Positions 1 to 63,900 of a stretch of 64,000 bases of DNA are shown in pieces. Origin of the DNA: Candidatus Poriferisocius sp. GTDB taxonomy: Bacteria; Actinomycetota; Acidimicrobiia; Acidimicrobiales; Bin134. Position 1 is the stretch's first letter. Every line of letters begins with the position of its first letter. The notes under the pieces are model-generated. The model was not told the DNA's origin. It searched no databases and worked only from the letters and a program-made list of their open reading frames with translations. The position numbers and the translations under genes were made by a program. Location: contig OZ244918.1 of the NCBI GenBank assembly GCA_965221865.1, positions 1,702,816 to 1,766,815 of the forward strand, in the 5' to 3' direction.

Positions 1-127
1 GCGGACACTTGCCTAGACTACTTGCAGCCCGTGTCAGCTTTAGATCAAAGCACAAACGAACTCCTCATGTTTTAGCGTTATTTTGCTGAGGATGCCTGCT
101 CTGCTAGAGGTATGTTTGATGGTATGT

Positions 128-1073
128 CTAAATCAAGGTGAACTCCGTCGGTGGTTGCGACGGGTCGGCTATTATAATTGGTTTGATGTTTCTGCGGCCT
201 ATCGGTGGAGGGTTTTGTTGTGGCATAGTGTTTGGGTGTGTGGAGGCGCGCATGTTTTGAGGTGTTGTTACAGCAGGGGTTTATGTAACGCTGAGGTTGT
301 TTTGTGTTTGGGCAGGTGAAAGATCGGTTTGGTGAGTGTTTATTGCTTCACGCTATTGCAGCGGAGTTACGTTGTTTGGGTTACCGGATTTGTGTTGAGA
401 CGATTTGCTGGGCTTGTTATGATTTTTCTAACCGTAGCGGTTTACTATCAAAATGTTGGAAACTGCTGCCTCGTGCTTGGCGGCGTAAACCACCTAGCCG
501 CAGTTCGCAGGGTAGGTGCAGTGTTTTAGGTGATTGGTGTCGTATATGTGAGCGTCCCAGCGAAGCTGATAGCTGGGTTGAGCCTGGTCATTAGCAAGAC
601 GATCTGATTATCACTCAAAAACCATCGCTCAGCTATAGCTACTTTAGCAGAACGCAAAAGCCGTCAAACCTTCAGTGTCAGCTTAGGTGACAGCTACGAT
701 GCTGTTAACACTGCTAACACCTGTCACCCAAGCACTAGCCCAGCAACTTGCACATATGGTGAAAACCCTTCATCTGAGACCACCGCAGAGAAATGACACG
801 GTTAGCTGACATAGAAAAAACCGTCGGTATCAAAGTCTACTTCTGTGAACCCCACTCACCCTCACAACAACCCAACCAACAAACAAACCAACACCTATCC
901 TACGCCGCCCGCTACCCAAACACACCAACCCCAACACCACCAAACCCCTACCAGCAACCATCAAAGACCATATCAAGGTAAACTCCATCAGTGGTTGCAA
1001 CAGGTTAACTGTTAGGACTGGTTTGAATTATCAGCAACCGACCGATGGAATTTACCAATTTGTTGATGGGTGA
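128..1073 (+). mobile_element. Degenerate IS30-family element, copy 1 (transposase pseudogene)
   Basis: IS30-type transposase landmarks appear in order but are spread over several frames with stops. They are ETICWACY, ICERPSEADSWVEPGH*QDDLI (GHWEGDLI box with TGG->TAG), AIATLAERKSR, VYFCEPHSPSQQ (SPWQRG.NEN box) and the LNYQQPTDGIYQF C-terminus. About 97% identical to 2956-3612. Confidence 0.7.
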
Positions 1074-2487: not shown

Positions 2488-2549
2488 CCTAGCAGGGCAG
2501 GCTCTTCAGCAAAATAATGCTAAAAAATGAGGAGTTCATTTGTGCTTTG

Positions 2550-3698
2550 GCAAGCTCTAGTGGTGGTCGCGACATAGTTGATTGTATATGGTTTGGGCTG
2601 TGTTCGGGTGGTGGAGTTTTCTGGGCATGTTGTTTGGTGAACTCCGTCGGTGGTCGCGACGGGTCGGCTATTATGGTCGGTTTGATGTTTCTGCGGCCTA
2701 TCGTTGGAGGGTTTTGTTGTGGCATAGTGTTTGGGTGTGTGGGGGCGCGCATGTTTTGAGGTGTTGTTACAGCAGGGTTTGAGTGATGCTGGGTTTGGGA
2801 AGTGTTTGGGTAGGAGTCGGGTAACGGTGTGGTGGGAACAGAAGCGTTTCGTTCAGGGCGCGTATCATGCTGAAACCGCTCAAAATGGGGCTGATGGGAA
2901 AGCGTTACGACCGAGGCTGTGTGAACTGGTTGTAGATGGTGAACTTGTTTAGCTGGTGAAAGATCGGTTTGGTGAGTGTTTATCGCTTCACGCTATTGCA
3001 GCGGAGTTACGTTGTTTGGGTTACCGGATTTGTGCCGAGATGATTTGCTGGGCTTGTTATGATTTTTCTAACCGTAGCGGTTTACTATCAAAATGTTGGA
3101 AACTGCTGCCTCGTGCTTGGCGGCGTAAACCACCTAGCCGCAGTTCGCAGGGTAGGTGCAGTGTTTTAGGTGATTGGTGTCGTATATGTGAGCGTCCCAG
3201 CGAAGCTGATAGCTGAGTTGAGCCTGGTCATTAGCAAGGCGATCTGATTATCACCCAAAAACCATCGCTCAGCTATAGCTACTTTAGCAGAACGCAAAAG
3301 CCGTCAAACCTTCAGTGTCAGCTTAGGTGACAGCTACGATGCTGTTAACACTGCTAACACCTGTCACCCAAGCACTAGCCCGGCAACTTGCACATATGGT
3401 GAAAACCCTCATCTGAGACCACCGCAGAGAAATGACACGGTTAGCTGACATAGAAAAAACCGTCGGTATCAAAGTTTACTTCTGTGAACCCCACTCACCA
3501 TGGCAACAACCCAACCAACAAACAAACCAACACCTATCTTACGACGCCCGCTACTCAAACACACCAACCTCAACACCACCAAACCCCTACCAGCAACCAT
3601 CAAAGACCATATCAACAACACACCCAAAAAACCCCACCACCCGAACACAACCCAAACCACACACAACCAACCATGTCACAACCACCACTAGAACTTGC
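2550..3698 (+). mobile_element. Degenerate IS30-family element, copy 2 (transposase pseudogene) with 85-bp terminal inverted repeat
   Basis: Contains N-terminal HTH-like LGRSRVTVWWEQKRF..AYHAETAQ, then the same landmarks as copy 1 (EPGH*QGDLI, VYFCEPHSPWQQ), with stops and frameshifts. 2550-2634 is the reverse complement of 3614-3698 (73/85 identical). Confidence 0.7.
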
Positions 3699-4029
3699 CT
3701 TATTTAGCAGTAATTTTTTGTCCCAGTTGCCAAACCCAATCAGGCGCATTTATAGCGTCATGGTCGCATAAAGCGTTAACTGCCATAGCGATCCGTGTCA
3801 GATCGTGGCGGCGCGGCGTGTGAAACGATGCCACCACCGATGTCGCTGCGGTGGTATTTTCATACTTATTACTCTATGAGCGTGATCTGTGTGCGATCAT
3901 TGCTTGCACAGTTCGCGAAGGTCAACCACACGACCACGCATATCGTTATTACGCATCAGCTCAGGAGTATCAGCAGCTGTGATAGTAGGAACAAACACCA
4001 CACTGACACAGGAGGCTCACCCAAACACG

Positions 4030-43860: not shown

Positions 43861-46800
43861 TTGGTGGTGTTGTGTGTGGGTTTGCGCGTCTTGTTGCTGT
43901 TGTGGGGGGGGGGGGGGGCAGGTTTGGTGAGGTGTCTGAGGTTGGGTGGTTGGTTGCGTAAGGTTTTGCGCGTGCGGGGGTTTGTTGCTGCGGCACTGGC
44001 CGCGGTGTTGTTTGGGGTGTTGTTTGGGGTGTTGGCGCCTGGTTCTGTTGGGGCGCAAACTTCGTCTGTGGTGTCTTCTACTGGTGATAGTGCGGTGGAG
44101 GTAGGCGAGGGTTCCGTGGCTGTTGTTGGGTTTAGTGTGTCGCCTCCGGTGGATTCGGAGGTGTGGCTTCGGTTTTGTTTTGAGAGTTCTTTAGCTGATT
44201 CTAATTTTTCTAATCTGCAGACTCAAATTGGTAATATGAACGTGTCTTTGGATAATAATGGTTGTTTTGATGGCCAGACGGTAACTGTTACCGTGGCCGG
44301 GGCGACGACTCAGTCAGCTACTATTAGGTTTCAGCCTTTGACTAATACGGTGGATGATCTTGATGAGGTTGTTACTGTTACGGTGAGTGAGGATCCTGAT
44401 AATCCGTTGCCTGATGGTGTAAGTATCGATGCTGAGGCTGATTCGGTGTCGAGGAAGATTGTGGATGAAGATCCGACGGTGGTGTCGTTGGCTCGTTCGG
44501 GTTCGGGGGCGATCACCGAAGGCGGGTCAGCGGAGTTAACGGTGAGTTTGGGTCGTGAGCTTGTTGCGGGTGAGATGGTGGGTGTGCCGTTGGCTATTAG
44601 CGGTACGAATGTGACGACCGCGGACTATGATTTGGTGTTGAAGGAAGGACAGGGGCTCAACACTGGCGTTGAGTTGTCGGGTGTGTCAACAACCGAACCG
44701 CATTTGAGTTTTTCTGGTGCTGGCGCGCAGACAGCAACTTTGCTGCTGACAGCGTTGCTAAATAATGATACGGGTGCTGAAACAGTAACAGTCGCGTTGG
44801 GGCCTGATGATGCGACTGCTAACGGTTTTGATCGCCCAGCGTTAGAGACGAACGTAAGTGGCGGTGTTAACCGGTCAAGCACGCAGAATAGTGTGAATGT
44901 GACAGTGAACGATCCTGCTGCGCCTGCTGCGCCTAGGTTATCGTTGGCTCAAGCTGGTGATGGGCAGGTGTATTTGTCGTGGGCTAATCCGGTTAATAGT
45001 TTGATTACTGGTTATGAGTTTCAACGCCGCCCAAGCGGCGGTGAGTGGGGTTCAGCGAAAGGGATTGTTGGTAGTAACGCTAATACCATTACTTATGTGG
45101 TAACCGGTCTCACTAATGACACGGCTTACACTTTCCGGGTGCGCGCTGTGTCTGGTAATACGGATGGGGCGTGGTCGGATGCGTCTGCTGCTGTGACACC
45201 AACGTCTGCTTCTACTGCTAGACCGGCTGTTCCAACGAATTTGGCGGCTGTTGCCGGTGACTCACAAGTAGTGTTAACGTGGGATAACCCGGGTAACACG
45301 GCGATTACTAGTTATGAGGTTCGTCAAAGAACTGGGTCCGCTGATTGGGGTACGTGGGCTGCTATTGCTTCTAGCAGCGCTACTACTGTTACCCATACTG
45401 TTACCGGGTTAACTAACGGTGTGACATATCAGTTTCAAGTACGTGCCGCTACTGGAAACCAAGACGCGTTGAAAAGTTTAACGCCAACAGATTTTTTCGC
45501 TGAAGCTACCCCCAGACCGGCACCACCAACGTTGCTGGTGTCGTCAAGGTCTGCGTTGCGGGTGCCTGAGGGGACGACAACTTTAGGGTATAATATTGTG
45601 TTGTCCCGGGCGTTGACGGCTGATGATCCTGCTGTGTTGGAGTTTGAGATAGCTGTTTCTGGCACTGCTACGCGTGGTACGGATTACTCGTTTTCGTCTG
45701 ATTCTAATTTGAGTGGCACAGGTGTGAGTGTGGTTAACACTGCGGGTAAGGGTAACCCTGTGATTCGTATTGACCGGGCCGCGTTCGGTCTCACTCGAAG
45801 AGGTAGCACTGCTGGGTTGATTATCAACGTGAATCCTGATAGTGATACGGAATCGACTGATGAGACGATTGTACTAACAACACCAGGCACCACCCTCACC
45901 CACATGATTTATGATGCGCCTGCGTCTGTTGAAGCTAAGTTCGCTTTAGCTTCTTCTACTTACGCTGAAGGTTTCGGTCCTTTAACGGTTGTTGTTCAAT
46001 TGAGCGCGTTAACAGGCCGGGATTTGGTGTTCCCCATATTATACCCGTCGGCTACTACAACAGCGGTAGCGAATGTTGATTACACACCGGTTAACAGTTT
46101 CACGGTGAAAGCTAATGGGCAGTTAACTCATTCTTTGGTTATTCCTTATGTTGATAATGATGTTGATGAGCCTAATAAAACGTTGTCTGTGATGTTGGGT
46201 GCTGCGCCTTCGGGTGCTACTAAGGCCACAACAGACACTATGACGGTGACTATTGCTGATAATGATGCAACAACAGTCGCTTTAGCGGTGGCAGATACTA
46301 CGTTGCGTGAAGACACTGACACTCGTTTGACTGTCACTTTGAGTCGTGATTTAGTGGCTGGTGAAATAGTGCGGGTGCCTTTGACTGTAAGCGGAACTGG
46401 TGTGACAGCTGATGATTACACGTTGGAGTTGGCTTCGGATGCGGGGTTGAACACGGGTGTTAGGTTGAACATTGCCTCTCCTTTTAGTGCTGCTTCACCG
46501 CAGGTAGTGTTCACAGGTAGTAGCGGCACCGAACAGGTCGCTACTTTGGTGTTGAGCGCTTCCTATGATGCTACCTCTGAGGGTGCGGAGACGTTGCAGG
46601 TTGGTTTCGGTGCGGTTACAAGCAATTTAGCTCACCCGGATCGGTCTACGTTTACTGCTGCTGGTACTACTGCGGGTGCCCCGGTTGATGTGACAGTGAA
46701 TAATTTGGATGCCCCAGCAGCGCCTACAGGACTCGCCGCGACTGCGGGGGACACGCAAGTGTCGCTGGTTTGGGATGATCCGGGTAATAATTTGATTACT

Positions 46801-49800
46801 GGGTACCAGTTTCGTAGAGGTTCAGGTGACCCGTTTAGTTGGGGTACGCATAAAGGTGTTGCTAATAGTGATGCGTCTACTACGTCTTATGTGGTGACGT
46901 CTTTGACTAATAGCACGGAGTACAGTTTTCAGGTACGCGCTTTAATTAACAGTGTGGAAGGTGCTTGGTCTAGCACAGTTAAAGCTACTCCTACGTCTAG
47001 TTCTACTGCTCCTCCGGCTGCTCCTTCAAACGTCACCGCCACAGCTGGTGACACACAAGTAGTATTAACGTGGGCTAACCCAGGTAACGCGGCTATTACC
47101 GGCTATGAGGTGCGCCAGCGTGCCGGGTCTTCTGGTAGTTGGGGTTCGTGGGCTGCTATTGCTTCAAGCAGCGCTACTACTGTTACCCACACTGCAACCG
47201 GGTTAACTAACGGCATTGAGTATAGTTTTGAGGTGCGCGCGGTTGCGGGCACAACACAAGGCGCAGCGTCGGTGACAGTAACCGCGACGCCGATGATTGA
47301 ACCGCCTATTTTGAATCTTTTTCGGCGTCCCCCAGCTAGGTTGCCTGAAGGTACAATAACCGATACCAATTTTGATTTCAGGTTGTCCCGGGCGTTGACT
47401 TCAGATGATCCTGCTTTAGTGGATTTGGAAGTAGCAGTTTCGGGTACTGCTACGCGTAACGTTGATTATCAGTTTTTTAGTAGTGGAACGGTTGCGGGTG
47501 TGTCTGTGTTGAACACAGCCGGTACAGGTAATCTTGTGCTTCGCATTAATCGGGCGACGTTCGGTACTACCAGTCAGGCCGTGTCGGTGAAGTTGGGTAT
47601 AAGAGTTCTGCCAGACAACACGGTGGAGTCGTCTGATGAGACGATTATTCTCACACCAGCGGGTGGTAGCGCGCGTACTTTTAGTGTTTATGATGCGCCA
47701 GCGTCGGTGGAAGTCAATGTTGAACAAAGCAGGCTTCGTGCTTCAACTCTTGAGAACCGTTCTTTGCATTTAACCCTTGTTTTAGACGCTGCTACTGGTA
47801 AGGATTTAGTGTTTCCTGTTTCGTATTCTGGTACAGCAACATCAGGGTCAGATTACACACCGGTTGATAGTTTCACGGTGAAAGCTAACGGGCGGTTAAC
47901 TCATTCTTTGGTTATTCCTTATGTTGATGATGATGTTGATGAGACTAACGAAACGGTGACAGTAATGTTAGGCGACGCCCCGTCTGGTGCTACTAAAGGT
48001 AGTACAGACACTGCGACTTTCACGATTGTTGATAACGATGCGACAACAGTGACAATGAAGCTTGCGGGTAGGGCGGGTATTGAAGAAAACACTTCCACTC
48101 AGCTGACAGTGTCATTAAGCCGCGATTTGGTAACAGGTGAGGAGGTTTGGGTGCCGTTGACGGTGTCGGGTACTGGTGTCACGGCAGATGATTACACGTT
48201 TAGTTTAGCTTCAGGTACAGGGTTGAACACTGGTGTCACGTTGAACACTACCGCTCCGTACAGCGCTGCGTTACCGCAGGTTTTGATTACTGGTGGTTCC
48301 GCTGTTGAGCGGTTTGCTACTTTGACTCTCAGCGCAGCTGATGATAGTACAGCAGAGAACACAGAAACATTGTCAATTGGTTACGGTAGTGTGGAAAGTA
48401 ATCTTGACCGGTTGGATGCATCTATTTTTTCTACAGGTGGTACTACTACTGCTGGTGCCCCGGTCACAGTTCAGATCAGCGATGAAGCTACTGGACCAAC
48501 GTTGCTGTTCACCAGGACAGGAACAGGGACACGGCTTCCTGAGGGCACAACTCTTGTGGAACACAATTTTGTGTTGTCTCGTCGTTTAAATGGCACTGAT
48601 CCTCAAGTACTTGAATACGAAATCGGGTTGGGTGGCACCGCTACTCGGGGTGCTGATTACACGTTAAGGTTTGTTTCGCAAGCACGCCACTCTGATGGTG
48701 TCACCGTCATTAACACTGCTGGTAGCAGTAATCCTGTTTTGCGTATCAACAGAACAGTGTTTGGCAGCAGGTTAACCAGGGGTACTGTTGGTTTAGTTTT
48801 GAGTGTAACAGCCGATAACACTGTTGAATCAGCTGCTGAAACAATTACTTTAACAACATCAGGCGGCAGCCTGGCTTACACGATTTATGATGCGCCTGCG
48901 TCTGTTGAAGCCAAGTTCACACGAGCCGCTTACGGGTATCAAGAAGGCAATAGAGTCTTTACAGTTGTGATTCAATTAAACGAACCAACAGGCAAAGATT
49001 TAGTGTTCCCCTTATCGTACCCGCAGCCTACAACAGCGGTATCAGGGGTTGATTACACACCGGTTGATAGTTACACTGTGAAAGCTAACGGGGAGTTAAA
49101 TCACGCAATCTCATTCCTATACAATGATAATAACCTTGATGAACTAACTAAAACATTGACTGTGATGTTAGGCGCAGCACCTGATGGTGTTACTAAAGGC
49201 ACCCCAGACACCGCAACAGTGACTATCTATGATAATACTCCCACAGCAGTTACTTTAGCCGTAAACGGTTCGTCTTCAATTGAAGAAGACACTAGTACTC
49301 AGCTCACTGTGACTTTGGGTCGTGATCTAGTGGCCGGTGAGATAGTGCGGGTGCCTTTGACTGTGAGCGGTACGGGTGTGACAGCCGATGATTACACGTT
49401 GGAGTTGGCTTCGGATGCGGGTGTGAATACTGGTGTAACTTTGAACACTGCTAACCCGTATAGTGCTGCTGAACCCCAAATAGTGTTCACTGGGGGCAGT
49501 AGTGTTGAGCGGGTAGCTACTTTAGTGTTAAAAGCGGTTGCTGATAATGATGATACTGAAACTTCTGAAACTATGACTATTAGTTTCGGTTCGGTTACAA
49601 GCAACTTAGATCAAATAAACCCGTCTGTTTTCGATGGGAGTGGTACTGCTGCTGGTGAGCCGGTGGAAATACTATTAGGCGCAGCTGTTTTGACTTTGTC
49701 TGTTGATAGTGGCACTGCTAATCCCACGGAGGTGGTTGAAGGCGAGTTGTTGATGATTACTGTTACGCGTAGCCAAGCTAACCGGACTGGTGCTGATATT

Positions 49801-51861
49801 AATGTTCCGTTCCGTTTGTTGATCGATGATGTAGGTTTAGTGGGTTTAGCTGATTTCACTATTCACAATGGTGATACTACTAGTTCAGCTAGTTTGAAAG
49901 CTCCTAACGACCGGTATGATGAACCAACTAAACAAGCATGGACAGCGGAATTGAACACTGCGTTGCTACCCGAAAATCATGTTGCTGATACATCTCGGGT
50001 GGCATTTACTGTTACAGATAATGATCCGACCACGGTTACTCTCAACGGGCTTGCAGGTGATATCGCTGAGGACACGGTGAAACGATTTACAATCACCCTT
50101 AACCGCGGGTTAGTAGCCGGTGAAACCTTGCCTGTACCTTTGGTTTTTGGTGGTACTGCTACCCGCAACGCGGATTACACTACTGCTTGCCCTGATCCTT
50201 TGCCGGTGGGAATACAATGCAATAATCTTGATACCGCTGAGACGCCGACTGTAACATTCACTGGCCCTCAACAAGGTGTAACAGCCCGTTCGGTTACTTT
50301 AACAGTCACCGCCCAAGCAGACCTATACACTGAAAACGACGAAACTCTGCGCATCGCTTTAGCACCCCTAAACGCTGATTCTGGTGACGGTTTAGGCGGC
50401 GGCGCGGTTGCTGTCAACGATTTTGATGCGTTCAACATCACAGACACCACCGACCCAGCAACCGCAATACAACCACCCCCAGAAGACCCTGAAGAACCTG
50501 TTGATCCTGAACCTGAAACAGTACCAACAACGCCCATATATCAAGTACCCACCAGCCTCATAGCTGATGTGCGCGGTTACGCTGCTGAAACTCACAATGG
50601 TGCCGCGCATGTGCGCCGTTGGCAACAAGTCTTGTTAGCGTTCGGTGACACCGTTAATGGGTTCACCGGCGCTCCGATCACTCTCACCGAAGCGCGAACC
50701 TATGCGCAACAGTTCTGGAGTGTTCGCTGGGATCCGGTAGTTGAAGCACTACAACAACTCGCCAACAACCCCCAACCCCAACCCACCGCAACACCTCAAC
50801 CCACTCCAACATCCACACCAACACCATCTGTTTACACCGTGCCAGCCAGCCTCATAGCTGATGTGCGCGGTTACGCTGCTGAAACTCACAATGGTGCCGC
50901 GCACGTGCGCCGTTGGCAAAGAGTCTTGCTCGCGTTCGGTGAAGACGTGCCAGGCTTCACTGGCACCCCGATCACCCTCACTCAAGCGCGAACCTATGCG
51001 CAACAGTTCTGGGGCAGCCGCTGGGATCCTGTAGTTGAAGCATTGCAACAACTCGCCAACAACCCGCCACCCCAACCTAACGACCCGTCGCCTAACAATC
51101 CGCCGCCTAACAATCCTTCAGTTGACCCACAGCCAAAACCTGTGCTGCCCAGAATCGGTGTTACAGCACCCACCGATATCACCGAAGGCCAAACCGCCGA
51201 TTTCACATTCACCGCTGTGTCCGCCCCCGCAACCCCGCTCACTGTCACTGTCAACATAATCACAACAGGTGATTATGGCATCACCGCTGGCAGCCGCACC
51301 GTGACCATAGACACCAACGGCACCGCCACACTGTCACTAGCTACCATTGGTGACAGCGTTGACGAACCAAACGGCACTATCACCGTCACACTTACCACCA
51401 GTAACACCTATAATGTTGACTCTGCTGCTGCGACTGCGACGGTTACTATCGCAGACGACGACGCACCAGTACAAACCACAAGCACACCTATTATTTCTAT
51501 AGCCGACCAAACCATCACCGAAGGCACCTCCTGTCGTACCCCCGCCCCCTGGTCCTGCCTCAACTTATACCCTGTCACTGTCACTTTGAACCAACCCCAC
51601 CACCAAAGCGTGTGGGTCTCATTCACCATCACCCAACTCGGACAAGGAACAGGCTATGCCACCGCGAACCAAGACTTCGCCGCACGCGACCGAAGAAGCT
51701 TCATCATCGCCGCAGGCCAAACCACCAAAAACATATACGTCAACATCAAAGACGACAACACCAAAGAACCCGACGAAACCTTCCAAATCACCCTACACAA
51801 CCCCCTCCGCGGACAAATCGGCGACGGACAAGCCACCATCACCATCAAAGACAACGACTAA
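43861..51861 (+). CDS. Giant secreted Calx-beta-like/FN3 repeat protein (2666 aa as listed; likely start GTG 43972)
   Basis: Signal-peptide-like RGFVAAALAAVLFGVLFGVLAPGSVGA-QT. Contains two FN3 pairs, many Calx-beta-like modules (..DNDATTV.., VD.DVDEPN.TL.V.L), three super-repeats and two 98-aa C-terminal modules. An AAGG lies 8 nt before 43972. Confidence 0.85.
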   Translation: MVVLCVGLRVLLLLWGGGGAGLVRCLRLGGWLRKVLRVRGFVAAALAAVLFGVLFGVLAPGSVGAQTSSVVSSTGDSAVEVGEGSVAVVGFSVSPPVDSEVWLRFCFESSLADSNFSNLQTQIGNMNVSLDNNGCFDGQTVTVTVAGATTQSATIRFQPLTNTVDDLDEVVTVTVSEDPDNPLPDGVSIDAEADSVSRKIVDEDPTVVSLARSGSGAITEGGSAELTVSLGRELVAGEMVGVPLAISGTNVTTADYDLVLKEGQGLNTGVELSGVSTTEPHLSFSGAGAQTATLLLTALLNNDTGAETVTVALGPDDATANGFDRPALETNVSGGVNRSSTQNSVNVTVNDPAAPAAPRLSLAQAGDGQVYLSWANPVNSLITGYEFQRRPSGGEWGSAKGIVGSNANTITYVVTGLTNDTAYTFRVRAVSGNTDGAWSDASAAVTPTSASTARPAVPTNLAAVAGDSQVVLTWDNPGNTAITSYEVRQRTGSADWGTWAAIASSSATTVTHTVTGLTNGVTYQFQVRAATGNQDALKSLTPTDFFAEATPRPAPPTLLVSSRSALRVPEGTTTLGYNIVLSRALTADDPAVLEFEIAVSGTATRGTDYSFSSDSNLSGTGVSVVNTAGKGNPVIRIDRAAFGLTRRGSTAGLIINVNPDSDTESTDETIVLTTPGTTLTHMIYDAPASVEAKFALASSTYAEGFGPLTVVVQLSALTGRDLVFPILYPSATTTAVANVDYTPVNSFTVKANGQLTHSLVIPYVDNDVDEPNKTLSVMLGAAPSGATKATTDTMTVTIADNDATTVALAVADTTLREDTDTRLTVTLSRDLVAGEIVRVPLTVSGTGVTADDYTLELASDAGLNTGVRLNIASPFSAASPQVVFTGSSGTEQVATLVLSASYDATSEGAETLQVGFGAVTSNLAHPDRSTFTAAGTTAGAPVDVTVNNLDAPAAPTGLAATAGDTQVSLVWDDPGNNLITGYQFRRGSGDPFSWGTHKGVANSDASTTSYVVTSLTNSTEYSFQVRALINSVEGAWSSTVKATPTSSSTAPPAAPSNVTATAGDTQVVLTWANPGNAAITGYEVRQRAGSSGSWGSWAAIASSSATTVTHTATGLTNGIEYSFEVRAVAGTTQGAASVTVTATPMIEPPILNLFRRPPARLPEGTITDTNFDFRLSRALTSDDPALVDLEVAVSGTATRNVDYQFFSSGTVAGVSVLNTAGTGNLVLRINRATFGTTSQAVSVKLGIRVLPDNTVESSDETIILTPAGGSARTFSVYDAPASVEVNVEQSRLRASTLENRSLHLTLVLDAATGKDLVFPVSYSGTATSGSDYTPVDSFTVKANGRLTHSLVIPYVDDDVDETNETVTVMLGDAPSGATKGSTDTATFTIVDNDATTVTMKLAGRAGIEENTSTQLTVSLSRDLVTGEEVWVPLTVSGTGVTADDYTFSLASGTGLNTGVTLNTTAPYSAALPQVLITGGSAVERFATLTLSAADDSTAENTETLSIGYGSVESNLDRLDASIFSTGGTTTAGAPVTVQISDEATGPTLLFTRTGTGTRLPEGTTLVEHNFVLSRRLNGTDPQVLEYEIGLGGTATRGADYTLRFVSQARHSDGVTVINTAGSSNPVLRINRTVFGSRLTRGTVGLVLSVTADNTVESAAETITLTTSGGSLAYTIYDAPASVEAKFTRAAYGYQEGNRVFTVVIQLNEPTGKDLVFPLSYPQPTTAVSGVDYTPVDSYTVKANGELNHAISFLYNDNNLDELTKTLTVMLGAAPDGVTKGTPDTATVTIYDNTPTAVTLAVNGSSSIEEDTSTQLTVTLGRDLVAGEIVRVPLTVSGTGVTADDYTLELASDAGVNTGVTLNTANPYSAAEPQIVFTGGSSVERVATLVLKAVADNDDTETSETMTISFGSVTSNLDQINPSVFDGSGTAAGEPVEILLGAAVLTLSVDSGTANPTEVVEGELLMITVTRSQANRTGADINVPFRLLIDDVGLVGLADFTIHNGDTTSSASLKAPNDRYDEPTKQAWTAELNTALLPENHVADTSRVAFTVTDNDPTTVTLNGLAGDIAEDTVKRFTITLNRGLVAGETLPVPLVFGGTATRNADYTTACPDPLPVGIQCNNLDTAETPTVTFTGPQQGVTARSVTLTVTAQADLYTENDETLRIALAPLNADSGDGLGGGAVAVNDFDAFNITDTTDPATAIQPPPEDPEEPVDPEPETVPTTPIYQVPTSLIADVRGYAAETHNGAAHVRRWQQVLLAFGDTVNGFTGAPITLTEARTYAQQFWSVRWDPVVEALQQLANNPQPQPTATPQPTPTSTPTPSVYTVPASLIADVRGYAAETHNGAAHVRRWQRVLLAFGEDVPGFTGTPITLTQARTYAQQFWGSRWDPVVEALQQLANNPPPQPNDPSPNNPPPNNPSVDPQPKPVLPRIGVTAPTDITEGQTADFTFTAVSAPATPLTVTVNIITTGDYGITAGSRTVTIDTNGTATLSLATIGDSVDEPNGTITVTLTTSNTYNVDSAAATATVTIADDDAPVQTTSTPIISIADQTITEGTSCRTPAPWSCLNLYPVTVTLNQPHHQSVWVSFTITQLGQGTGYATANQDFAARDRRSFIIAAGQTTKNIYVNIKDDNTKEPDETFQITLHNPLRGQIGDGQATITIKDND
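43904..43918 (+). repeat. Homopolymeric G15 tract in the giant gene 1 leader / extreme 5' end
   Basis: Counted directly. Lies 54 nt upstream of GTG 43972, where a signal-peptide-like sequence starts. A G9 run is at 43754-43762. Confidence 0.95.
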
Positions 51862-51882
51862 CCCCGTTGGGGGTTAGTCGTT
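51853..51882. terminator. 13-bp perfect palindromic hairpin between convergent genes (bidirectional terminator candidate)
   Basis: aacgactaacccc-gttg-ggggttagtcgtt. Both stop codons (51859-61 and 51874-76) lie inside the stem. There is no U-tract. Confidence 0.5.
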
Positions 51883-52278
51883 GGGGCGTGGTAGTCCGGC
51901 GGCGGTTTCGAGGCGAGCTAGGCGGTCGGTGTGGTCGAGGAGTATCGCGTTGATTTCAGCAAATCCTGCCTGCATTTCTGTGCGTACGCTGCTGATTTCG
52001 GTGCGTAGTTCGGTGCTTAGTTCTGTGCGTACGTTGTTGATTTCGGTGCGTAGTTGAGTGTCGAGGTTGTCTATGCGGTTGCCGAGTGAGTTGATTTGTG
52101 AGATGATTATGCTTAACAGCACAGATACTAGGGTAACTAGTAGTGTGCCGACCACCGAGCTGAGGGATGGGAGCCATTTACGTGTTGTGCTTTGTGTGTC
52201 ACCGGTTTGAGATTGCGCGGTGTCGCTCATCTCGACAGTGGTTGTTTCGGTTGGCACGTTTTGTATTATAGCAGCCAT
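51874..52278 (-). CDS. Membrane-anchored coiled-coil protein, unknown function
   Basis: AGGAGG SD, one TM (VVGTLLVTLVSVLLSIIIS), and a repeated RTEINNVRTELSTELRTEISSVRTEM. Confidence 0.65.
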   Translation of the reverse strand: MAAIIQNVPTETTTVEMSDTAQSQTGDTQSTTRKWLPSLSSVVGTLLVTLVSVLLSIIISQINSLGNRIDNLDTQLRTEINNVRTELSTELRTEISSVRTEMQAGFAEINAILLDHTDRLARLETAAGLPRPND

Positions 52279-58756: not shown

Positions 58757-60900
58757 CGGTGGTTGGGTGGGGTTAGAGTTTTATGTAGGTGTCGGGGTTT
58801 TGGGTGTGTTTTTGCTTTGGGGAACAGATTTTTCGTGTTGTTGATAATTGGGGAACAGATTTTGTTTGTTTGTTTTTATCTGGGTTTTTAGCTTGTTTGT
58901 AAGGGTTTTCTAGTTTTTGTTGTTCCTCGTGGTTTGTTTTCCGTTATCTGTGTGTGTTGGTTGTTTGTTTTTGTAGTTTGTGGGGGTTTGGTGTTTGTTG
59001 GAGGGTAGCTGCTGGGGGTGGTGGGGTTTTGGTGGGGGTGTGGTTGGTTTTTTATTGTTTGTTGATTTTTGTATAGTATATGAATTATGAGTGGTTTGTT
59101 GTTTTGTTTGTTGAGGGGGGGTTTGTGTTTTGATTCTTTGGTGTGCGGGGGGGGGGGCTGGGTTTGTTGTTTGGGGTTGTGTGTGTGGGTTGAGGTGGGG
59201 TTGTGATGTTGGTGGGGGGTTTTTGTTTTAGGGTTGTTTGTGGTTTGGTGGTTGTGTTGGGTTTGTTTGTTTCGGGTTTGGGTGTTGGTGGTGGTGTGGT
59301 TGCGGAGGGGGGTGGTTTTGTGGGGGTGGGTGTGGGGGGTTCTGGTGTTGTTGTGGGGGTGGGTGATGTTGGTGTTGGTGGGGTTTTGGGTGTTGGGGGT
59401 GGGTCTGATTTGTTTTGGGGTTTGGATGGTTTGGAGGGTTTGGAGGGTGTTGGGGGTGGTGTTGGTGTGGTTGGGGGTCGTGTGGGTGGTGGGTTGTTGT
59501 TTGGTGGGGATGGTTTTTTGGATTTGGGTGTGGGTGTGGGTGGGGGTGGGGGTTTTGGTTTTGAGGGGTGTGGGTCTGGGGAATCTGGTGTGGTTGAGGG
59601 TGTTGTTGAGGAGCTTATGTCAGATACTGTTGTGGCGGATAGTGGGTGTGGGTGGTCTGTTGGTTTGTGGGTGAAGCGGGTTGGTGGGGTTGTTGGTGGG
59701 TCTGTGTTGTTGGGGTCTTTGGAGGGTGGGGATTCTTTGTTGTTGGAGGGTGTTGGGGGTCGTGTGGGTGTGGGGCGGTTGGGTGGTGTGGTTCGTAGTT
59801 TTGGGTTTGGTACGCCGTTGGGTGAGTGGGTTTATTTGGTGTTTGTGGGGTCGTCGGGTGGTGTGGGTTTGTTTGTGGATGGGGTGTTGGTGGGTTGGGT
59901 TGGTGGGGGTGTTGGGTTGTCTTTGGGTGTTTTGGGTGGTGGTGTTGGTGGTGTTGGGGGTGTGAGGGCTGTTTTGGATGATTTGCGGGTGTGGGGTCGT
60001 GTGTTGTCTGCGGGTGAGGTGGCGGGGGTGTTTGGGGGGTTTGAGCCGTTGTTGGTGCCTGGTGTTGTTGAGGGTTTGGTTGGGGCTGATGTTGGTGTTG
60101 GGAGTGTTGGGTTGGGGTGGTTAGCGCCTGTTGGTGGTGGTGGGGTTGAGGGGTTTGAGGTGCGTTGGCGTGAGGAGGGTTCGGGTGTGTGGTTGGGTGA
60201 GGGTGTGGTTGAGGTGTCGGCTCAGGGGAAGGGGGAAGAGGGGTATGGTTTTGTGGCCGATGGGTTGGGTGTTGGGGTGGCATATGAGTTTTGGGTGCGT
60301 GCTGTTAATGGTGTGGGTGGTGGTGGTTGGGTTTCTGTTCGGTTTGTTGCGGGTGTTTCGGGGGTGGCTGATGTTGTGAGCGGGTTGAGGGTGTCTTCTG
60401 AGCCGGGTGGGTTTAGGGTTTCGTGGGGTAGGCCTGTTGATGCGGGTGGTTTTGATGTGTCGGGGTTTGAGGTGCGTTACCGGCGTGGTGGTGGTGGTGG
60501 TTGGGTGTCTGAGTTTGTGGGTGACACAGAGCGGGGGTTGGTGGTGGATGGTTTGGTTGTTGGTGGTGCCTATGAGGTGCAGGTGCGGGTTTTGACTGGG
60601 TTTGGTGCGGGTTTGTGGGTGTCTGGGAGGGTTGTTGTGGGTCGTGAAGGTGTTCCGGGTGTTCCGGGTGGGTTGTTGGTTGATGTTGGGGCAGATGGGG
60701 TGGTGTTGTTGTGGGATGCGCCTGTTAGTGATGGTGGTGTTGGGGTTGATGGTTATGAGGTTCGGTATAGGCGGGGCGGGTTTTGGTCTGAGCCTGTTGG
60801 TTTAGAGTCTTGGGTGCGGGGTTATGAGTTTTCGGGTTTGGTGCGTGGTGTGGATCATGTGTTGTTGGTGCGGGCTATAAATGAGCGTGGGCCGGGTTCT
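58757..60900 (+). other. G+T-saturated (A/C-depleted) tract
   Basis: For example, 59281-59400 has 4 A/C in 120 nt. The tract covers 450 nt of non-coding DNA and the first 1.7 kb of giant gene 2. Confidence 0.9.
59147..59157 (+). repeat. Homopolymeric G11 tract 49 nt upstream of the giant gene 2 ATG (plus G7 at 59115-59121)
   Basis: Counted directly. Confidence 0.95.
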
Positions 60901-63900
60901 TGGGCTGGTTTAGAGGTAGGTTTTGGTGTTTCATCTAAACAAGCGTTCACGGTGCCTAGGTTGGTTGGTTGGTTGCCTGGTGATGGGGTGTTCACAGTTG
61001 TTAGGGGTTCACGTGTTGTGATTACGGGTGGTGATACAGCTAGGAGTTGGTCTGAGGATTTCATGTCCACAGTATTAGAAAACGAAGAGGTGGTAGCCGA
61101 TGTTGACAGTGTTTTAGGTGTGAATGTGTTGCAAGCACATTCACAGGTTGTGGGTGTTGCTACTGCTGCGCGTAGGGTTTTACGGGAGGTAGCAGAAAAG
61201 ATAGCTGCCGATTTGGAAGCTGTCACAGGTTTTGATGTGCCTGTGGTGGTGGTTGATGATATTCAAAGTGCGCGTGCTGGTGACATTGTGTTGGATGTAG
61301 CTGATAGTTCGGTTGAAGGGTTGGGGGTGGAAGGTTACACATTGTTTGTGGGTGATGTGGTAAGGATTGTTGGGAATACTTCTACTGGCGTGTTTTGGGG
61401 GTCGAGGTCTTTGCTGCAATTGTTAGCAGCATCTGAAACCGGTTTGGTGGTACCAGCAGGTTCGGTGCGTGATATTCCTTCAGCGGTTAGCGCTGTGAGA
61501 TCTTTGCATTTAGATAAAGCAGCCAGGTTTTACAGTCCAACACATTTACAACAGTTGATCGGGTTGTTGTCTTGGCACAAACTAAACGTGTTACACCTTG
61601 ATTTCACTTTCGCTAATGGTAGATACGATCAAGCGGTTTGGCTTTCGGATTTAGAAAACTTCGCTCGCGACCATCATGTGGCAGTAATCGTTAGCGAACC
61701 GCTTGCCGACACTACACCACCCGCAGAACAAGCAGACAGGCTAGTTGCTGAAAGTTTTGTTAGCAGCGGTGTGGTTGGGAGTGTTGTTGGTGACGGTGAT
61801 GCAGGGTTAGTTGAGAGCACAGTCACACAAGACCGTCAACAATTAGCTAACACTGTGTCTGGTGTGAGCGCGGATCGTTGGGTGAGGGGACACCGTTTTG
61901 TTTTAGGACGTCAACTTGTGTTACCTGATTTAGCGGCTATTCACAGTCTGGCTAGCAAACTGAATGGGCCCGGTGAGGTGGGTGCTGGACTGTTCGTGGG
62001 CGGCCCGTTAGCTTTAGCAGCCACCGACGGGTTCATCAACTATCATTTAGGTTCGTCTTTAGCAGTGCTCGGTGACCGGTTATGGAACGAGCAGGCATCT
62101 AACTGGACAGTCGACGAGTTCCTAACAGCTAAAAACATTATCGGTTCACCGCTCACAACAAAAACCGTTCACAACTCTGAACAACATCGCGGGCTCATAC
62201 ACCACTGGAGTTTCAACAATGTGAAATATTATCAAACCTCTGAAAACACAGCAGATAAGACAAGCTATTTACTAATACCCGATCATACGGGCAGAGCTGA
62301 CGGATATGCGATCGGTGACCCACAAAAATTTCCTCGGCTAAACGCTGACAGCCGTCTTTTAGGTCAAAGCATAGAATTCGGGCACAGCGAACAAGTCCTA
62401 AACCAAGACGGCATAGAACTAGGCGCCACAGACTTACCAGTACCATGGACCCTGTCAGCGTGGGTGAAACGAACCGGCAACCATCCCGGAGCGACACTAC
62501 TAAACTCAATTAACGGGGCGATACGCCTACAACAACACAACAAACCCGTAATAGGCCTCCTAGACCGCACAAACACACCATACACATACCACAACTTTGA
62601 CTACACCCTGCCACTAAACAAATGGGTACACCTAACACTCATCGCCACCCAACAAGGCACAGTACTATACGCTGATAGCCGTCTTGTCGGCTCAGTGCCC
62701 AAGTCGATTTCGTTGCCGCTACAACAAATCGGGTTTGAAAACCTCATCGGCCTAAAAGCCAAAATAGATGATATCAAAATATGGGGGCAACCACTTGTTT
62801 CTGCTGTCAACCAAGTTATATCCACCCCAACAACACCCATTGATCAACCCATAGTGCCCGAGCTGGTTGCTACACCACCATTAGAACCCGGTTTAGTAGC
62901 AGTGTCGCTGGATGTGAACAACTCGGGCACAGTCACAGAGGGTGGCACGTTGACGGTCACTGCGACATTAGCGGCAGCGGCCGCAGCGAACGTTACGATT
63001 CCAGTGCGCGTTGCCTCCGGTGGCACAGCAGGAGCTGGTGATTACACACTTTCTGCTTCGGGGAACATTACTATTAGCAGCGGTTCCACATCAGGCACTT
63101 TGACGTTTAATGCTACCGATGACAGTATTGATGAAAACAATGAGACGCTAACATTAGAGTTCGGTACGCTACCTGCCGGTTATCGTGCTGGCAGCCCGTC
63201 AAGTGTGAACATCACCATAACAGACAACGACACAGCGGGTGTGACCATCACCGAGACCGGTGACAGCACATCGGTAGCAGAAAACGCTGGTACTGACACT
63301 TACACCGTCGTGTTAGACACCCAGCCAACCCATGATGTGTCGGTGGCGGTCACATCAACAGGGCCTGTGGCGTTTGATGGACCAGATGATGCGACCGCGT
63401 ACACCACAAGTGAAACATTAACGTTCACACCAACTAACTGGGCGACAGCGCAGACGATCACAGTGCAAGGCCAAAACGATGATGTGGACAACACTGGCGG
63501 GTCGCGTAGCGCGACACTCTCTCATGATGTGTCGTCCAGCGACACGGCTTATAACGCTATAGCTGACCAAGATGTCACCGTAACGGTGACCGATGATGAT
63601 GCGACGCCTGAGATTGATTTAAGTGTGAACCCGGCAACGGTGGCAGAAGATGCTGGCGCGACCACGGTGACAGTTACCGCCACGGTTGATGACGCGACCA
63701 TCAGATTTGACGCGGCGAAAACGGTAGCAGTGTCGGTTACAGGGTCGGGTGAGGCTAACCGGGTCGGGTTCACAGCGGTCAACAACTTCAACATTACTAT
63801 CGCTGCTGGCCAACCGTCGGGGAGTAACACGTTCACGCTCACACCAGATGATGACAGCACTGATGAGACCGACGAGACAATCACCATATCGGGCACTTCA

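What the first reader, a model, noticed from the sequence alone, without database searches (positions are those of the whole stretch)
83..62880. Skewed tracts form a mosaic restricted to accessory DNA and absent from the core operon
The + strand is G+T-rich at about 140-560, 2550-3200, 43780-44200, 58757-60900, and mildly at 51883-52270. The + strand is C+A-rich at about 830-975, 3480-3698, 50440-51861 (strongest 51480-51861) and 62100-62880. All of these lie in IS remnants, the two giant surface-protein genes or the small convergent gene. By eye, the 16-kb ribosomal/RNAP block, the ABC/GH38 operon and the pyrimidine cluster are unskewed. Borders are sharp (tens of nt) and ignore coding/non-coding boundaries. 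This suggests a targeted or episodic process, or DNA that spent time in a different replicative state such as a linear or ssDNA intermediate, rather than ordinary replication or transcription skew.
Basis: partly seen in the sequence, partly recalled or inferred. Interest (0 to 1): 0.75.

Follow-up and report, generated by a model that had tools for sequence, protein, structure and literature searches.

The report
Inward-facing G+T hypermutation tracts
In this sponge-associated actinobacterium, mobile elements and large surface-protein genes (but not housekeeping genes) have had almost every A and C on one DNA strand replaced by G and T, running inward from the edges of each gene, while the affected surface-protein genes keep an open reading frame and recognisable domains; I found no bacterial precedent for a local strand bias this strong.

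Summary
An HMM finds 10 tracts (4.8 kb) with G+T skew of +0.5 to +0.93 or -0.35 to -0.81. None lie in the 40-kb core block, and essentially none occur in 1.4 Mb of control loci. G+C content stays normal. Close copies differ almost only by A>G and C>T on one strand. The tracts are not artefacts. They recur in two other strains, in Illumina assemblies of the orthologous gene from other species, and in other accessory genes of three further related genomes. They are not dead DNA: giant gene 2 keeps its frame and its LamG, FN3 and GH20b domains while third codon positions are 95-100% G/T. The G+T-rich strand always points inward from a sharp outer edge (a stop codon, an IS30 terminus, or a hairpin loop) and decays gradually. 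Conservation across species excludes a one-off event. My best guess, at modest confidence, is single-strand base damage (C>U, A>hypoxanthine) on the strand displaced by untranslated sense and antisense transcription (R-loops), seeded by G runs. Recombination-linked biased repair, a dedicated deaminase, and selection on RNA remain open. The affected surface genes also carry poly-G or poly-C tracts at their 5' ends. Novel and interesting.

The parts
132..990 (+). IS30-family transposase pseudogene, copy A (lacks the long terminal repeats). G+T tract at 178-427 and C+A tract at 848-990.
   Evidence: It is 97% identical to copy B over 305-976.
972..1062 (+). Partial third copy of the IS30 5' region, in a largely unconverted state.
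   Evidence: Matches 132-210 only in purine/pyrimidine space (92%). Differences from copy A: 13 A>G against 2 G>A.
2549..3699 (+). IS30-family transposase pseudogene, copy B, with 86-nt inverted ends (2549-2634 and 3614-3699). G+T tract at 2577-2836 and C+A tract at 3487-3694.
   Evidence: NCBIfam NF033563 scores 82.9 bits against a cut-off of 80. The inverted ends are 86% identical in ACGT and 100% in purine/pyrimidine space. All 12 differences are C>T or A>G. Eleven of the 12 are derived in the right end.
43754..43918 (+). G9 (43754-43762) and G15 (43904-43918) homopolymer runs in the leader of giant gene 1.
   Evidence: Such runs are about 10 times rarer per nucleotide in the control loci.
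43771..44192 (+). G+T tract over the leader, signal peptide and first ~80 codons of giant gene 1 (skew +0.65).
   Evidence: change point 43771.
43957..51861 (+). Giant surface-protein gene 1 (FN3 and Calx-beta domains). K3 falls 5' to 3' in steps rather than smoothly: 0.90, 0.86, about 0.72, dipping to 0.48-0.57, recovering to 0.63-0.72, then 0.31-0.46, then 0.15.
50433..51865 (+). C+A tracts at the 3' end of giant gene 1 (50433-50560, 50744-50826, 51046-51865).
51852..51883 (.). Perfect 14-bp hairpin whose left arm is C+A-rich and right arm G+T-rich. The skew flips in its loop.
   Evidence: change point 51866, support 51864-51868.
51866..52278 (+). G+T tract on the + strand covering the small convergent gene (51874-52278 on the - strand; a 134-aa protein that looks from its sequence like a membrane-anchored coiled coil). 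K3 on the + strand is 0.87.
58758..61033 (+). The strongest G+T tract (skew +0.73, peaking at +0.93). It covers the intergenic leader, a G11 run at 59147-59157, and the first ~600 codons of giant gene 2 (a Laminin_G_3 domain and three FN3 domains).
59203..64000 (+). Giant surface-protein gene 2, 5' part (11004 aa in strain L001). The frame is intact. K3 runs 1.00, 0.98, 1.00, 0.95, 0.94, 0.89, 0.71, 0.66, 0.54, 0.46, 0.32, 0.26, then 0.46-0.54.
   Evidence: Strain indels of 9, 12 and 18 nt keep the frame.
62100..62880 (+). C+A tract over the second Laminin_G_3 domain and the linker of giant gene 2 (HMM core 62467-62661).

Best explanation
SHOWN. The tracts record a persistent, strand-specific substitution pressure that replaces A with G and C with T on one strand. 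It acts inward from both outer edges of particular accessory units: IS30 copies, the two giant surface-protein genes, and the small convergent gene. The strand read 5' to 3' away from the sharp edge is the G+T-rich one. The effect decays over 0.2-4 kb. It saturates synonymous sites while selection keeps the proteins foldable.

INFERRED MECHANISM. That strand spends unusually long periods single-stranded, where cytosine deaminates to uracil (read as T) and adenine to hypoxanthine (read as G). The likeliest cause of the exposure is transcription that is not followed by ribosomes, which allows R-loops to form. Candidate sources are read-through past an upstream stop codon, long leaders, phase-OFF or pseudogenised reading frames, and antisense transcripts entering from the 3' side. 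The displaced non-template strand is then damaged. G runs and the growing G-richness of that strand would stabilise R-loops and G-quadruplexes and so reinforce the process. This positive feedback would explain the extreme amplitude and the restriction to a few loci. Tightly translated core genes escape.
For: 1. Spectrum.
- G+C content is unchanged, and both purine and pyrimidine skews rise.
- Copies match in purine/pyrimidine space only.
- All 12 differences between the IS30 inverted ends are C>T or A>G, and 11 are polarised as derived.
- The partial copy differs from copy A by 13 A>G against 2 G>A.
- At synonymous sites against the L083 ortholog, changes toward G/T outnumber the reverse 35 to 4 in the G+T tract. 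The ratio is 11 to 33 in the C+A tract.

2. Real and heritable.
- Present in strains L001 and L002.
- Present in MEGAHIT-type and scaffold-type assemblies of the ortholog (L083-85) and in L086.
- Present in other accessory genes in L087, L088 and L089.

3. A mutational pressure opposed by selection, not decay.
- K3 is 0.95-1.00, against 0.85-0.96 at first positions and 0.70-0.84 at second positions.
- The true frame has 0 stops, against 6 and 31 in the other frames.
- fn3, Laminin_G_3 and GH20b are still detected.
- Strain indels are multiples of 3.
- The IS30 pseudogenes show the same tracts, so selection on protein or mRNA is not needed to maintain them.

4. Link to untranslated transcription.
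- The change point at 58758 lies 17 nt after the upstream stop codon, with no terminator-like site in 58300-59700.
- In L087 the tract starts at the stop of the upstream co-directional gene, and in L083 70 nt after it.
- At the convergent pair the skew flips between the two stop codons, so each tract has the polarity expected from read-through of the opposite gene.
- G3+ runs are 6.3 per 100 nt against 1.2 in core DNA, with no C3+ runs.
- G/C homopolymers of 9-25 nt lie at the 5' ends of all affected surface genes.

5. Literature.
- Untranslated nascent transcripts are R-loop-prone in bacteria, and antisense RNA is a major source (PMC3977913, PMC5909445).
- Cytosine deamination is raised on the non-template strand in E. 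coli (PMC2927911).
Against: - Other untranslated but transcribed spacers are unskewed. These include the L10 and rpoB leaders (23071-23290 and 24302-24514) and spacers of 353-510 nt. Untranslated transcription alone is therefore not sufficient.
- The C+A tracts at 62100-62880, in L088 and in the Peripla_BP_4 gene need antisense promoters. I found no evidence for any: 0 promoter-like sites in 62300-63300, and the downstream genes are co-directional.
- The tract at 58758 starts about 300 nt upstream of the only A-rich, promoter-like island in that leader.
- The pattern of two inward-facing tracts is symmetric under reverse complement. It therefore does not prove any dependence on gene orientation.
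- Spontaneous adenine deamination is much slower than cytosine deamination (my own knowledge), yet the purine and pyrimidine skews are equal (0.74 and 0.73).
- There are no expression or R-loop data.
Confidence: 0.35

Rival explanations
1. Recombination- or break-linked bias. The sharp edges are recurrent break or recombination-initiation sites: IS termini cut by transposase, a palindrome, homopolymer tracts, and the boundary between conserved flank and variable gene. Heteroduplex or repair synthesis extends inward from them. Strand-asymmetric handling of G:T versus A:C mismatches then drives one strand toward G+T. In Actinobacteria the candidate is the NucS/EndoMS pathway, which recognises G:T but not A:C (my own knowledge). 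Error-prone resynthesis of the resected 5' strand is an alternative.
For: - The edges coincide with IS30 ends, the centre of a perfect palindrome, and flank/variable-gene boundaries.
- The polarity (G+T strand reading away from the edge) fits resynthesis of the 5' strand.
- The affected DNA is exactly the multi-copy or highly variable class: IS30, IS481, HNH/DUF222 and repeat-rich surface genes.
- A 37-difference patch at 51385-51751 between two 99.5%-identical strains shows that gene conversion occurs inside a tract.
- Absence from conserved flanks is expected if the bias needs pre-existing mismatches.
- The symmetry of the inward-facing pattern is natural under this model.
Against: - The sign of the NucS-type bias cannot be predicted. 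My simplest version gives the opposite polarity.
- Repair-synthesis errors should also mark synonymous sites of the flanking core genes, but their K3 is 0.54-0.67 right up to the edge.
- There is no independent evidence for breaks at 58758 or 43771.
- Driving K3 to 1.00 by conversion bias needs very frequent exchange.
Confidence: 0.2
2. A dedicated enzyme, such as a nucleic-acid deaminase or similar activity acting on both A and C, is targeted to these loci and edits one strand. Targeting could be by transcription, by DNA ends or by foreign-DNA recognition. The function could be diversification of surface proteins or crippling of mobile elements. This would be a bacterial counterpart of somatic hypermutation or repeat-induced point mutation.
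For: - The amplitude is extreme: 90-100% conversion at free sites, with equal A>G and C>T conversion. That is easier to reach by catalysis than by spontaneous damage.
- The targets are surface adhesin-like genes with phase-variation tracts, plus transposase and HNH genes.
- The IS copies are dead.
- Eleven directional changes accumulated in 86 nt of one IS end since it split from the L089 copy.
Against: - No deaminase or other candidate gene was identified.
- No sequence-context preference is evident among the residual C and A. This was checked by eye only.
- The proteins appear conserved rather than diversified: 40-68% identity to the ortholog both inside and outside the tracts.
Confidence: 0.15
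3. Selection on nucleic-acid composition. G+U-only leaders and 5' coding regions, and C+A-only 3' regions, are favoured because such RNA cannot form Watson-Crick structure. C-poor RNA would also evade Rho, and C-rich, G-poor RNA would recruit it. Alternatively, a G+T-only strand avoids palindromic sites.
For: - Predicted folding energy falls to -0.02 to -0.19 kcal/mol per nt in 58758-60200, against -0.30 in core genes.
- The C/G ratio is 0.13 in the 5' tract and 2.3 in the 3' tract.
- The position is conserved across species.
Against: - The same tracts occur in IS30 pseudogenes and in about 450 nt of non-coding DNA upstream of any plausible start codon.
- Directional changes continue in a dead element.
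- Hundreds to thousands of nucleotides at K3 = 1.00 is far more than any known requirement for translation initiation or Rho loading.
- The small convergent gene has a C+A-rich coding strand throughout, so there is no consistent 5'/3' rule.
Confidence: 0.1
4. Replication-linked exposure. G-rich strands form quadruplexes that stall synthesis and leave long-lived single-stranded gaps on that strand. These gaps are deaminated and the strand becomes still more G-rich. This is a self-reinforcing process independent of transcription.
For: Very high G-run density, and the homopolymer seeds. The spectrum is that of single-strand damage.
Against: - It does not explain why the edges sit at stop codons and IS termini.
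- It does not explain why tracts come in inward-facing pairs.
- Both polarities occur within a few kb on one replichore.
Confidence: 0.07
5. Sequencing or assembly artefact, or a single scar from acquisition of foreign DNA.
For: The window and its close strains come from long-read metagenome assemblies. The tracts lie in accessory DNA.
Against: - The tracts are present in three strains from different samples and in short-read-type assemblies of the ortholog.
- Codon-position structure and an intact frame.
- Conserved in orthologs at 45-55% protein identity, so a single old scar would have decayed by now.
Confidence: 0.02

Closest known systems
Vertebrate mitochondrial strand asymmetry (deamination of the strand left single-stranded during replication). 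From my own knowledge.
   Same: Both C>T and A>G accumulate on one strand. G+C is roughly kept. There is a positional gradient. The effect is strongest at synonymous sites.
   Different: Here the effect is local (0.2-4 kb) and occurs in many units with both polarities on one chromosome. It is more extreme (K3 up to 1.00) and is not tied to a replication origin.
Transcription-associated mutational strand asymmetry (raised deamination of the non-template strand in E. coli; G+T excess on the coding strand of mammalian genes). PMC2927911; bioRxiv 10.64898/2026.05.22.727198.
   Same: The 5' tracts have the right polarity (non-template strand G+T-rich) and the same two transitions.
   Different: The amplitude here is much larger. 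Highly expressed core genes are unaffected. The 3' tracts have the opposite polarity. The borders are sharp.
R-loop-prone G-rich regions such as immunoglobulin class-switch regions. PMC4245955; bacterial R-loops from untranslated or antisense RNA in PMC3977913 and PMC5909445.
   Same: [quoted passage not shown] Kilobase length. A displaced strand as the target for deamination.
   Different: Switch regions are non-coding repeats acted on by a known enzyme, AID. Here the sequence is a complex coding sequence in a bacterium, with A>G as well as C>T, and no enzyme is known.
Strand-coordinated mutation clusters (kataegis) at resected breaks. From my own knowledge.
   Same: Runs of same-strand transitions whose strand switches across a point.
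   Different: Those are C>T only and arise in single events. If the sharp edges here are the breaks, the polarity is the reverse of the 3'-tail model. The tracts here are fixed and conserved between species.
Repeat-induced point mutation in fungi. From my own knowledge.
   Same: Transition hypermutation that hits transposable elements and leaves them dead.
   Different: RIP gives C>T only, lowers G+C and targets the duplicated segment itself. Here G+C is unchanged, A>G is equally common, and unique gene ends are hit harder than the internal repeats.
Diversity-generating retroelements. From my own knowledge.
   Same: Localised hypermutation in surface or ligand-binding protein genes.
   Different: DGRs mutate adenines to any base in a short variable repeat copied from a template repeat by a reverse transcriptase. 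Here the changes are A>G plus C>T over kilobases, with no template/variable repeat pair in the window.

Membership tests
Replication-associated (leading/lagging) strand skew | The sign is constant over a replichore and switches only at the origin and terminus. The amplitude is small. | tested here: not met
   Ten tracts with nine sign changes in 64 kb. Amplitude up to 0.93 against a window mean of 0.08.
Transcription-associated mutational asymmetry | The non-template strand is enriched in the products of C>T and A>G. | tested here: inconclusive
   Met for the 5' tracts of both giant genes, the IS30 5' ends and L083/L086/L087. The opposite holds at 3' ends and in the small convergent gene unless antisense transcription is assumed.
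Transcription-associated mutational asymmetry | The strength scales with transcription of the unit. | tested here: not met
   Genes that are normally among the most highly expressed (rpoB, rpoC, tuf, fusA, ribosomal proteins) have K3 of 0.49-0.62, and their leaders have skew of 0.02-0.05. Expression itself was not measurable here.
R-loop-forming G-rich region | [quoted passage not shown] | tested here: met
   6.3 G3+ runs per 100 nt against 1.2 in core DNA, and no C3+ runs. G9, G15 and G11 runs at the 5' ends.
R-loop-forming G-rich region | An RNA:DNA hybrid with a displaced strand is demonstrated. | not testable with these tools
   Needs DRIP-seq or single-strand footprinting.
Single-strand deamination gradient (mitochondrial type) | Both C>T and A>G on the same strand, with a positional gradient at synonymous sites. 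| tested here: met
   Purine skew 0.74 and pyrimidine skew 0.73. K3 falls monotonically from 1.00 to 0.26 in giant gene 2, and overall from 0.90 to 0.15 in giant gene 1 with a dip and recovery in mid-gene.
Diversity-generating retroelement | Adenine-specific changes to any base between a template repeat and a variable repeat. | tested here: not met
   The spectrum is A>G plus C>T. No repeat partner for the giant-gene tracts was found in ACGT or purine/pyrimidine space. The presence of a reverse transcriptase was not tested.
Repeat-induced point mutation | C>T (G>A) only, with loss of G+C, confined to duplicated segments. | tested here: not met
   G+C in the tracts is 0.46-0.59, against 0.50 for the window as a whole, and A>G is as frequent as C>T. 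The internal repeats of giant gene 1 are only mildly skewed.
IS30 family insertion sequence (the 'IS remnants') | Transposase matches the IS30 model above its curated cut-off; terminal inverted repeats are present. | tested here: met
   NF033563 scores 82.9 bits against a cut-off of 80 on a stitched pseudo-protein. Pfam rve scores 25.5 bits, below its cut-off. 86-nt inverted ends. The gene is broken by stops and frameshifts.
Phase-variable contingency locus | A long homopolymer tract in the promoter or 5' coding region, with length varying between strains. | tested here: met
   G9, G15 and G11 in the window; G15 in L083; C16 in L087; C13 in L088; C9 and C25 in L089. Controls have 6 such runs in 1.46 Mb. 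G11 against G10 between strains. ON/OFF switching itself is not testable here.
Sequencing or assembly artefact | Not reproducible across samples or platforms, and with no biological structure. | tested here: not met

The most novel reading that the evidence does not exclude
These sponge-associated Acidimicrobiia possess a targeted, strand-specific DNA-editing process that acts on both adenine and cytosine. It is directed at the ends of accessory genes. It continuously recodes phase-variable surface-protein genes and inactivates mobile elements. This would be a prokaryotic analogue of somatic hypermutation or repeat-induced point mutation, with a new enzymology or a new targeting rule.
Probability: 0.13. 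Interest if true: 0.95.

Novelty: new variant of a known kind. Interest (0 to 1): 0.8.

Why it matters
If the tracts are mutational, they are a natural, kilobase-scale record of which DNA strand is exposed in vivo, and where, in an uncultured symbiont. The amplitude is far above the window-wide replication-type skew, and I found no bacterial report of comparable local tracts.

They show that a protein can keep a recognisable FN3 or LamG fold while being encoded almost entirely with G and T. That amounts to a natural experiment in reduced-alphabet coding.

They link phase-variable surface genes and mobile elements to a local mutational regime. This bears on how contingency loci evolve and how genomes tame transposons.

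Practically, such tracts will mislead gene callers because they contain no stop codons. They will also mislead composition-based binning, detection of horizontal transfer, and codon-usage analyses.

If an enzyme is responsible, it would be a candidate dual A-and-C DNA editor.

Tried and rejected
1. Exact-pattern search for the IS30 core in one genome per species found nothing. A degenerate search for the IS end and a protein-based search in JGI metagenomes also found nothing. The lineage is not in those collections.

2. Look-ups of three left-end window proteins, and of P0014 and P0015, returned no record. I could therefore not extend the window leftward or sample the 2.93-Mb relative.

3. Rfam and tRNA scans found nothing in the tracts.

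4. I tried to align the 58742-59260 leader to the L083 leader while tolerating transitions. The score of 134 was no better than shuffles (126 +/- 11). I therefore dropped the claim that the A-rich island at about 59068-59097 is a conserved promoter.

5. Simple promoter scans gave no support for an antisense promoter at the right edge of the 62100-62880 tract.

6. 'Exported proteins only' is rejected. The solute-binding protein gene at 14271-15764 and the secreted protein gene at 1099-1794 are unskewed. IS30, IS481 and HNH/DUF222 genes are skewed.

7. 'The pattern follows gene orientation' is rejected as untestable. The pattern of two inward-facing tracts is its own reverse complement.

8. The central-break (kataegis) model is rejected. 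The skew is strongest at the outer edges, not next to the centre.

9. A single acquisition scar is rejected by conservation in orthologs.

10. Amino-acid composition of database homologs proved too insensitive as a proxy for tracts.

11. Literature searches found no description of comparable tracts in bacteria.

Full report
OBSERVATION.

All nine are skewed in the stated direction. The extreme case is 58757-60900, with 1034 G, 841 T, 143 A and 126 C (skew +0.75). Its 200-nt windows reach +0.93.

A three-state HMM gives:
- G+T tracts at 178-427, 2577-2836, 43771-44192 and 58758-61033.
- C+A tracts at 848-990, 3487-3694, 50433-50560, 50744-50826, 51046-51865 and 62467-62661.
- No tract in the 40 kb from 3695 to 43770, which holds the GH38/ABC genes, tRNAs, ribosomal proteins, rpoB/rpoC and fusA/tuf (Pfam checks).
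- No tract in 51866-58757.

In 80 loci from other species fetched as a by-product (1.46 Mb), windows with |skew| >= 0.5 are essentially absent.

NATURE OF THE CHANGE.

G+C content inside the tracts is normal (0.46-0.59). The purine skew (G against A) and the pyrimidine skew (T against C) rise together. One strand has therefore lost A to G and C to T.

I re-ran a self-comparison after collapsing the sequence to purines and pyrimidines.
- The two 86-nt ends of the element at 2549-3699 are 86% identical in ACGT but 100% identical in purine/pyrimidine space.
- Their 12 differences are six C>T and six A>G, with nothing else.
- A copy of the same element in a related genome (L089) polarises 11 of the 12 as derived changes in the window's right end.
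- A short, unconverted third copy (972-1062) differs from copy A by 13 A>G against 2 G>A.

The 'IS remnants' are IS30-family transposase pseudogenes: NF033563 scores 82.9 bits against a cut-off of 80, and the frames are broken. Compared with intact relatives, the 5' part shows R>C, A>V, T>V/M, P>L, Y>C and R>W. The 3' part shows R>H/Q. These are the replacements expected from C>T and A>G on one strand at the 5' end and on the other strand at the 3' end.

NOT AN ARTEFACT, NOT DEAD DNA.

- The locus occurs in two other metagenome assemblies at 98.7% and 99.5% identity, with the tracts intact.
- The orthologous giant gene in a species with 54% G+C has the same layout: a 5' G+T tract and a downstream C+A tract. 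That species was assembled three times, with MEGAHIT-style and scaffold-style contig names, and is 55% identical in protein.
- A 64% G+C species (45% identity) also has the 5' G+T tract. There, third positions change from C 0.43/T 0.10 in neighbouring genes to C 0.11/T 0.40 in the tract.
- In the window, giant gene 2 has 0 in-frame stops across 60013-60900, against 6 and 31 in the other two frames.
- Its third positions are 95-100% G/T, first positions 85-96% and second positions 70-84%.
- Pfam still finds three fn3 domains, two Laminin_G_3 domains and GH20b.
- The indels between strains are 9, 12 and 18 nt.

This is the signature of a very strong nucleotide-level pressure opposed by purifying selection on the protein.

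ANATOMY.

G+T at third codon positions on the + strand (K3) removes most protein-level constraint.
- Every gene outside the two giant genes and the small convergent gene: 0.44-0.66.
- Giant gene 1, in 100-codon blocks: 0.90, 0.86, about 0.72, dipping to 0.48-0.57, recovering to 0.63-0.72, then 0.31-0.46, then 0.15.
- Small convergent gene: 0.87.
- Giant gene 2: 1.00, 0.98, 1.00, 0.95, 0.94, 0.89, 0.71, 0.66, 0.54, 0.46, 0.32, 0.26, then back to about 0.5.
- The gene immediately upstream of the strongest tract: 0.54-0.67.

Maximum-likelihood change points place the sharp edges as follows:
- 58758 (support 58756-58761), which is 17 nt after the upstream stop codon.
- 51866 (support 51864-51868), the loop of a perfect 14-bp hairpin lying between the two convergent stop codons.
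- 3689 and 971, at the IS30 right ends.
- 43771, just after a G9 run.

The inner limits are gradients. The general rule is that the strand read 5' to 3' away from a sharp outer edge is the G+T-rich one. Each unit therefore shows two tracts facing inward. This pattern is its own reverse complement, so it carries no information about gene orientation. A minus-strand HNH/DUF222 gene in L089 shows the same layout (+ strand K3 of 0.94, 0.83, 0.66, 0.24).

GENERALITY.

Three further genomes from the same kind of samples show the same thing.
- L087 (62% G+C): a 729-aa Calx-beta gene sits between housekeeping genes, with K3 of 0.95, 0.89, 0.73, 0.60, 0.56, 0.47, 0.45. Its neighbours are about 0.5.
- L088 (57% G+C): a homolog runs 0.65 down to 0.21, and a Peripla_BP_4 gene ends at 0.19.
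- L089 (49.5% G+C): IS30, IS481, HNH/DUF222 and RCC1/FN3 genes are affected.

The nearest named relatives are Ca. Poriferisocius (85% identity on the aldehyde dehydrogenase, 65% G+C). They have no giant gene at the syntenic site and no tract there.

Differences between strains are concentrated in the tracts and are partly directional. At 60912-61143, eight of the differences are cases where L001 has G or T and the window has A or C. At 62387-62769, L001 has A or C where the window has G or T.

The process is therefore old, position-bound and apparently still running. That excludes a single episodic event or an acquisition scar.

MECHANISM.

What is shown is a persistent, strand-specific pressure from A/C toward G/T that acts inward from the edges of accessory units. 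The spectrum is that of damage to single-stranded DNA.

My preferred cause is exposure of the non-template strand in R-loops made by transcription that is not followed by ribosomes. The supporting evidence is:
- Tracts begin right after upstream stop codons, with no terminator-like site between.
- At the convergent pair, each tract has the polarity expected from read-through of the opposite gene.
- G-run density is five times that of core DNA.
- Every affected surface gene carries a long G or C homopolymer at its 5' end. The length varies between strains, and such runs are about ten times rarer per nucleotide in the controls. Such genes would often be out of frame and untranslated.
- Bacterial R-loops are known to arise from untranslated and antisense transcripts (PMC3977913, PMC5909445).
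- Deamination of the non-template strand is documented in E. coli (PMC2927911).
- Increasing G-richness should stabilise the structure, which gives a runaway process.

The weaknesses are real:
- Other untranslated spacers, including the L10 and rpoB leaders, are unskewed.
- Several C+A tracts need antisense promoters for which I found no evidence.
- Equal A>G and C>T conversion is not what spontaneous rates predict.

I put this explanation at about 0.35. The rivals are recombination- or break-linked biased repair at about 0.2, a dedicated targeted editing activity at about 0.15, selection on RNA or DNA composition at about 0.1, replication-gap feedback at about 0.07, and artefact or scar at about 0.02.

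COMPARISON WITH KNOWN SYSTEMS.

The phenomenon works most like the single-strand deamination gradient of vertebrate mitochondrial DNA and like transcription-associated strand asymmetry. It has features of R-loop-prone switch regions. It is not a member of any of the following:
- Replication skew, because of the sign changes and amplitude.
- Classical transcription-associated asymmetry, because core genes that are normally highly expressed are unaffected and the 3' polarity is opposite.
- DGRs, because the spectrum is wrong and there is no repeat pair.
- RIP, because G+C is unchanged and A>G is as common as C>T.
- Kataegis, because it is fixed, conserved and strongest at the outer edges.

My literature searches found no bacterial precedent.

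VERDICT.

The 'episodic or other replicative state' reading is not supported, because the tracts are conserved and bounded by gene features. I rate it a new variant of a known kind (local, extreme, inward-facing strand asymmetry). Interest is 0.8.

Noticed in passing
window 43754-43762 (G9), 43904-43918 (G15), 59147-59157 (G11); L083 9925 (G15); L087 9957 (C16); L088 10028 (C13); L089 11496 (C9) and 11972 (C25): Long G or C homopolymers sit at the 5' end of every affected surface-protein gene. The length differs between strains (G11 in the window and L001, G10 in L002). This looks like slipped-strand phase variation. Such runs number 6 in 1.46 Mb of control loci.
   Followed up: partly
window 991-2576: A low-G+C island (0.40) encodes a small protein with a signal-peptide-like N-terminus (1099-1794) and a hydrophobic, membrane-protein-like product (1831-2406). 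It lies between the two IS30 pseudogene copies. It is accessory-looking but not skewed.
   Followed up: no
window 51385-51751 versus L002: 37 of the 40 substitutions between the window and the 99.5%-identical strain L002 fall in this 370-nt patch (10% divergence). It is probably a gene-conversion tract from a paralogous Calx-beta repeat.
   Followed up: no
L083 13748-13750 (also L084 and L085): An in-frame stop interrupts the orthologous giant gene inside the second Laminin_G_3 domain, in three independent assemblies. The next called gene starts at the following base.
   Followed up: no
window 2461-2487 = 4030-4056 (27 nt, 100%); 46-107 is the reverse complement of 2489-2549 (90%): Short exact and inverted repeats flank the IS30 copies. 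They suggest a larger composite or rearranged element.
   Followed up: no
window 9787-9871 versus 10621-10705: An 85-nt direct repeat (94% identical) lies in two intergenic regions of the minus-strand ABC/GH38 gene cluster.
   Followed up: no
window 7177-7293 and 7942-8216; C9 run at 7243: Two short spacers around the gene at 7294-7941 have mild C+A skew (-0.30 and -0.29), and one holds a C9 run. These may be weak versions of the same phenomenon inside the 'core' region.
   Followed up: no
L088 17125-18396: A periplasmic-binding-protein gene (Peripla_BP_4) has a strongly C+A-biased 3' end (K3 of 0.53, 0.60, 0.34, 0.19), although the next gene is co-directional.
   Followed up: no
L089 7476-8358 and 8741-9946: An IS481-type remnant and an HNH/DUF222 gene in a related 2.75-Mb genome carry the same inward-facing tracts. 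The same hypermutated IS30 pseudogene family is present at 10013-10504.
   Followed up: partly
window 59428-59630 versus L001: All three indels between the strains in the most skewed stretch are multiples of three (9, 12 and 18 nt). The 18-nt one carries the only A/C-rich island of that stretch.
   Followed up: partly
protein database searches: The 11004-aa and 2639-aa giant proteins of strain L001 were not returned as hits to their own near-identical window sequences, and no listed hit exceeded about 1360 aa. Very long proteins may be missing from that search.
   Followed up: no
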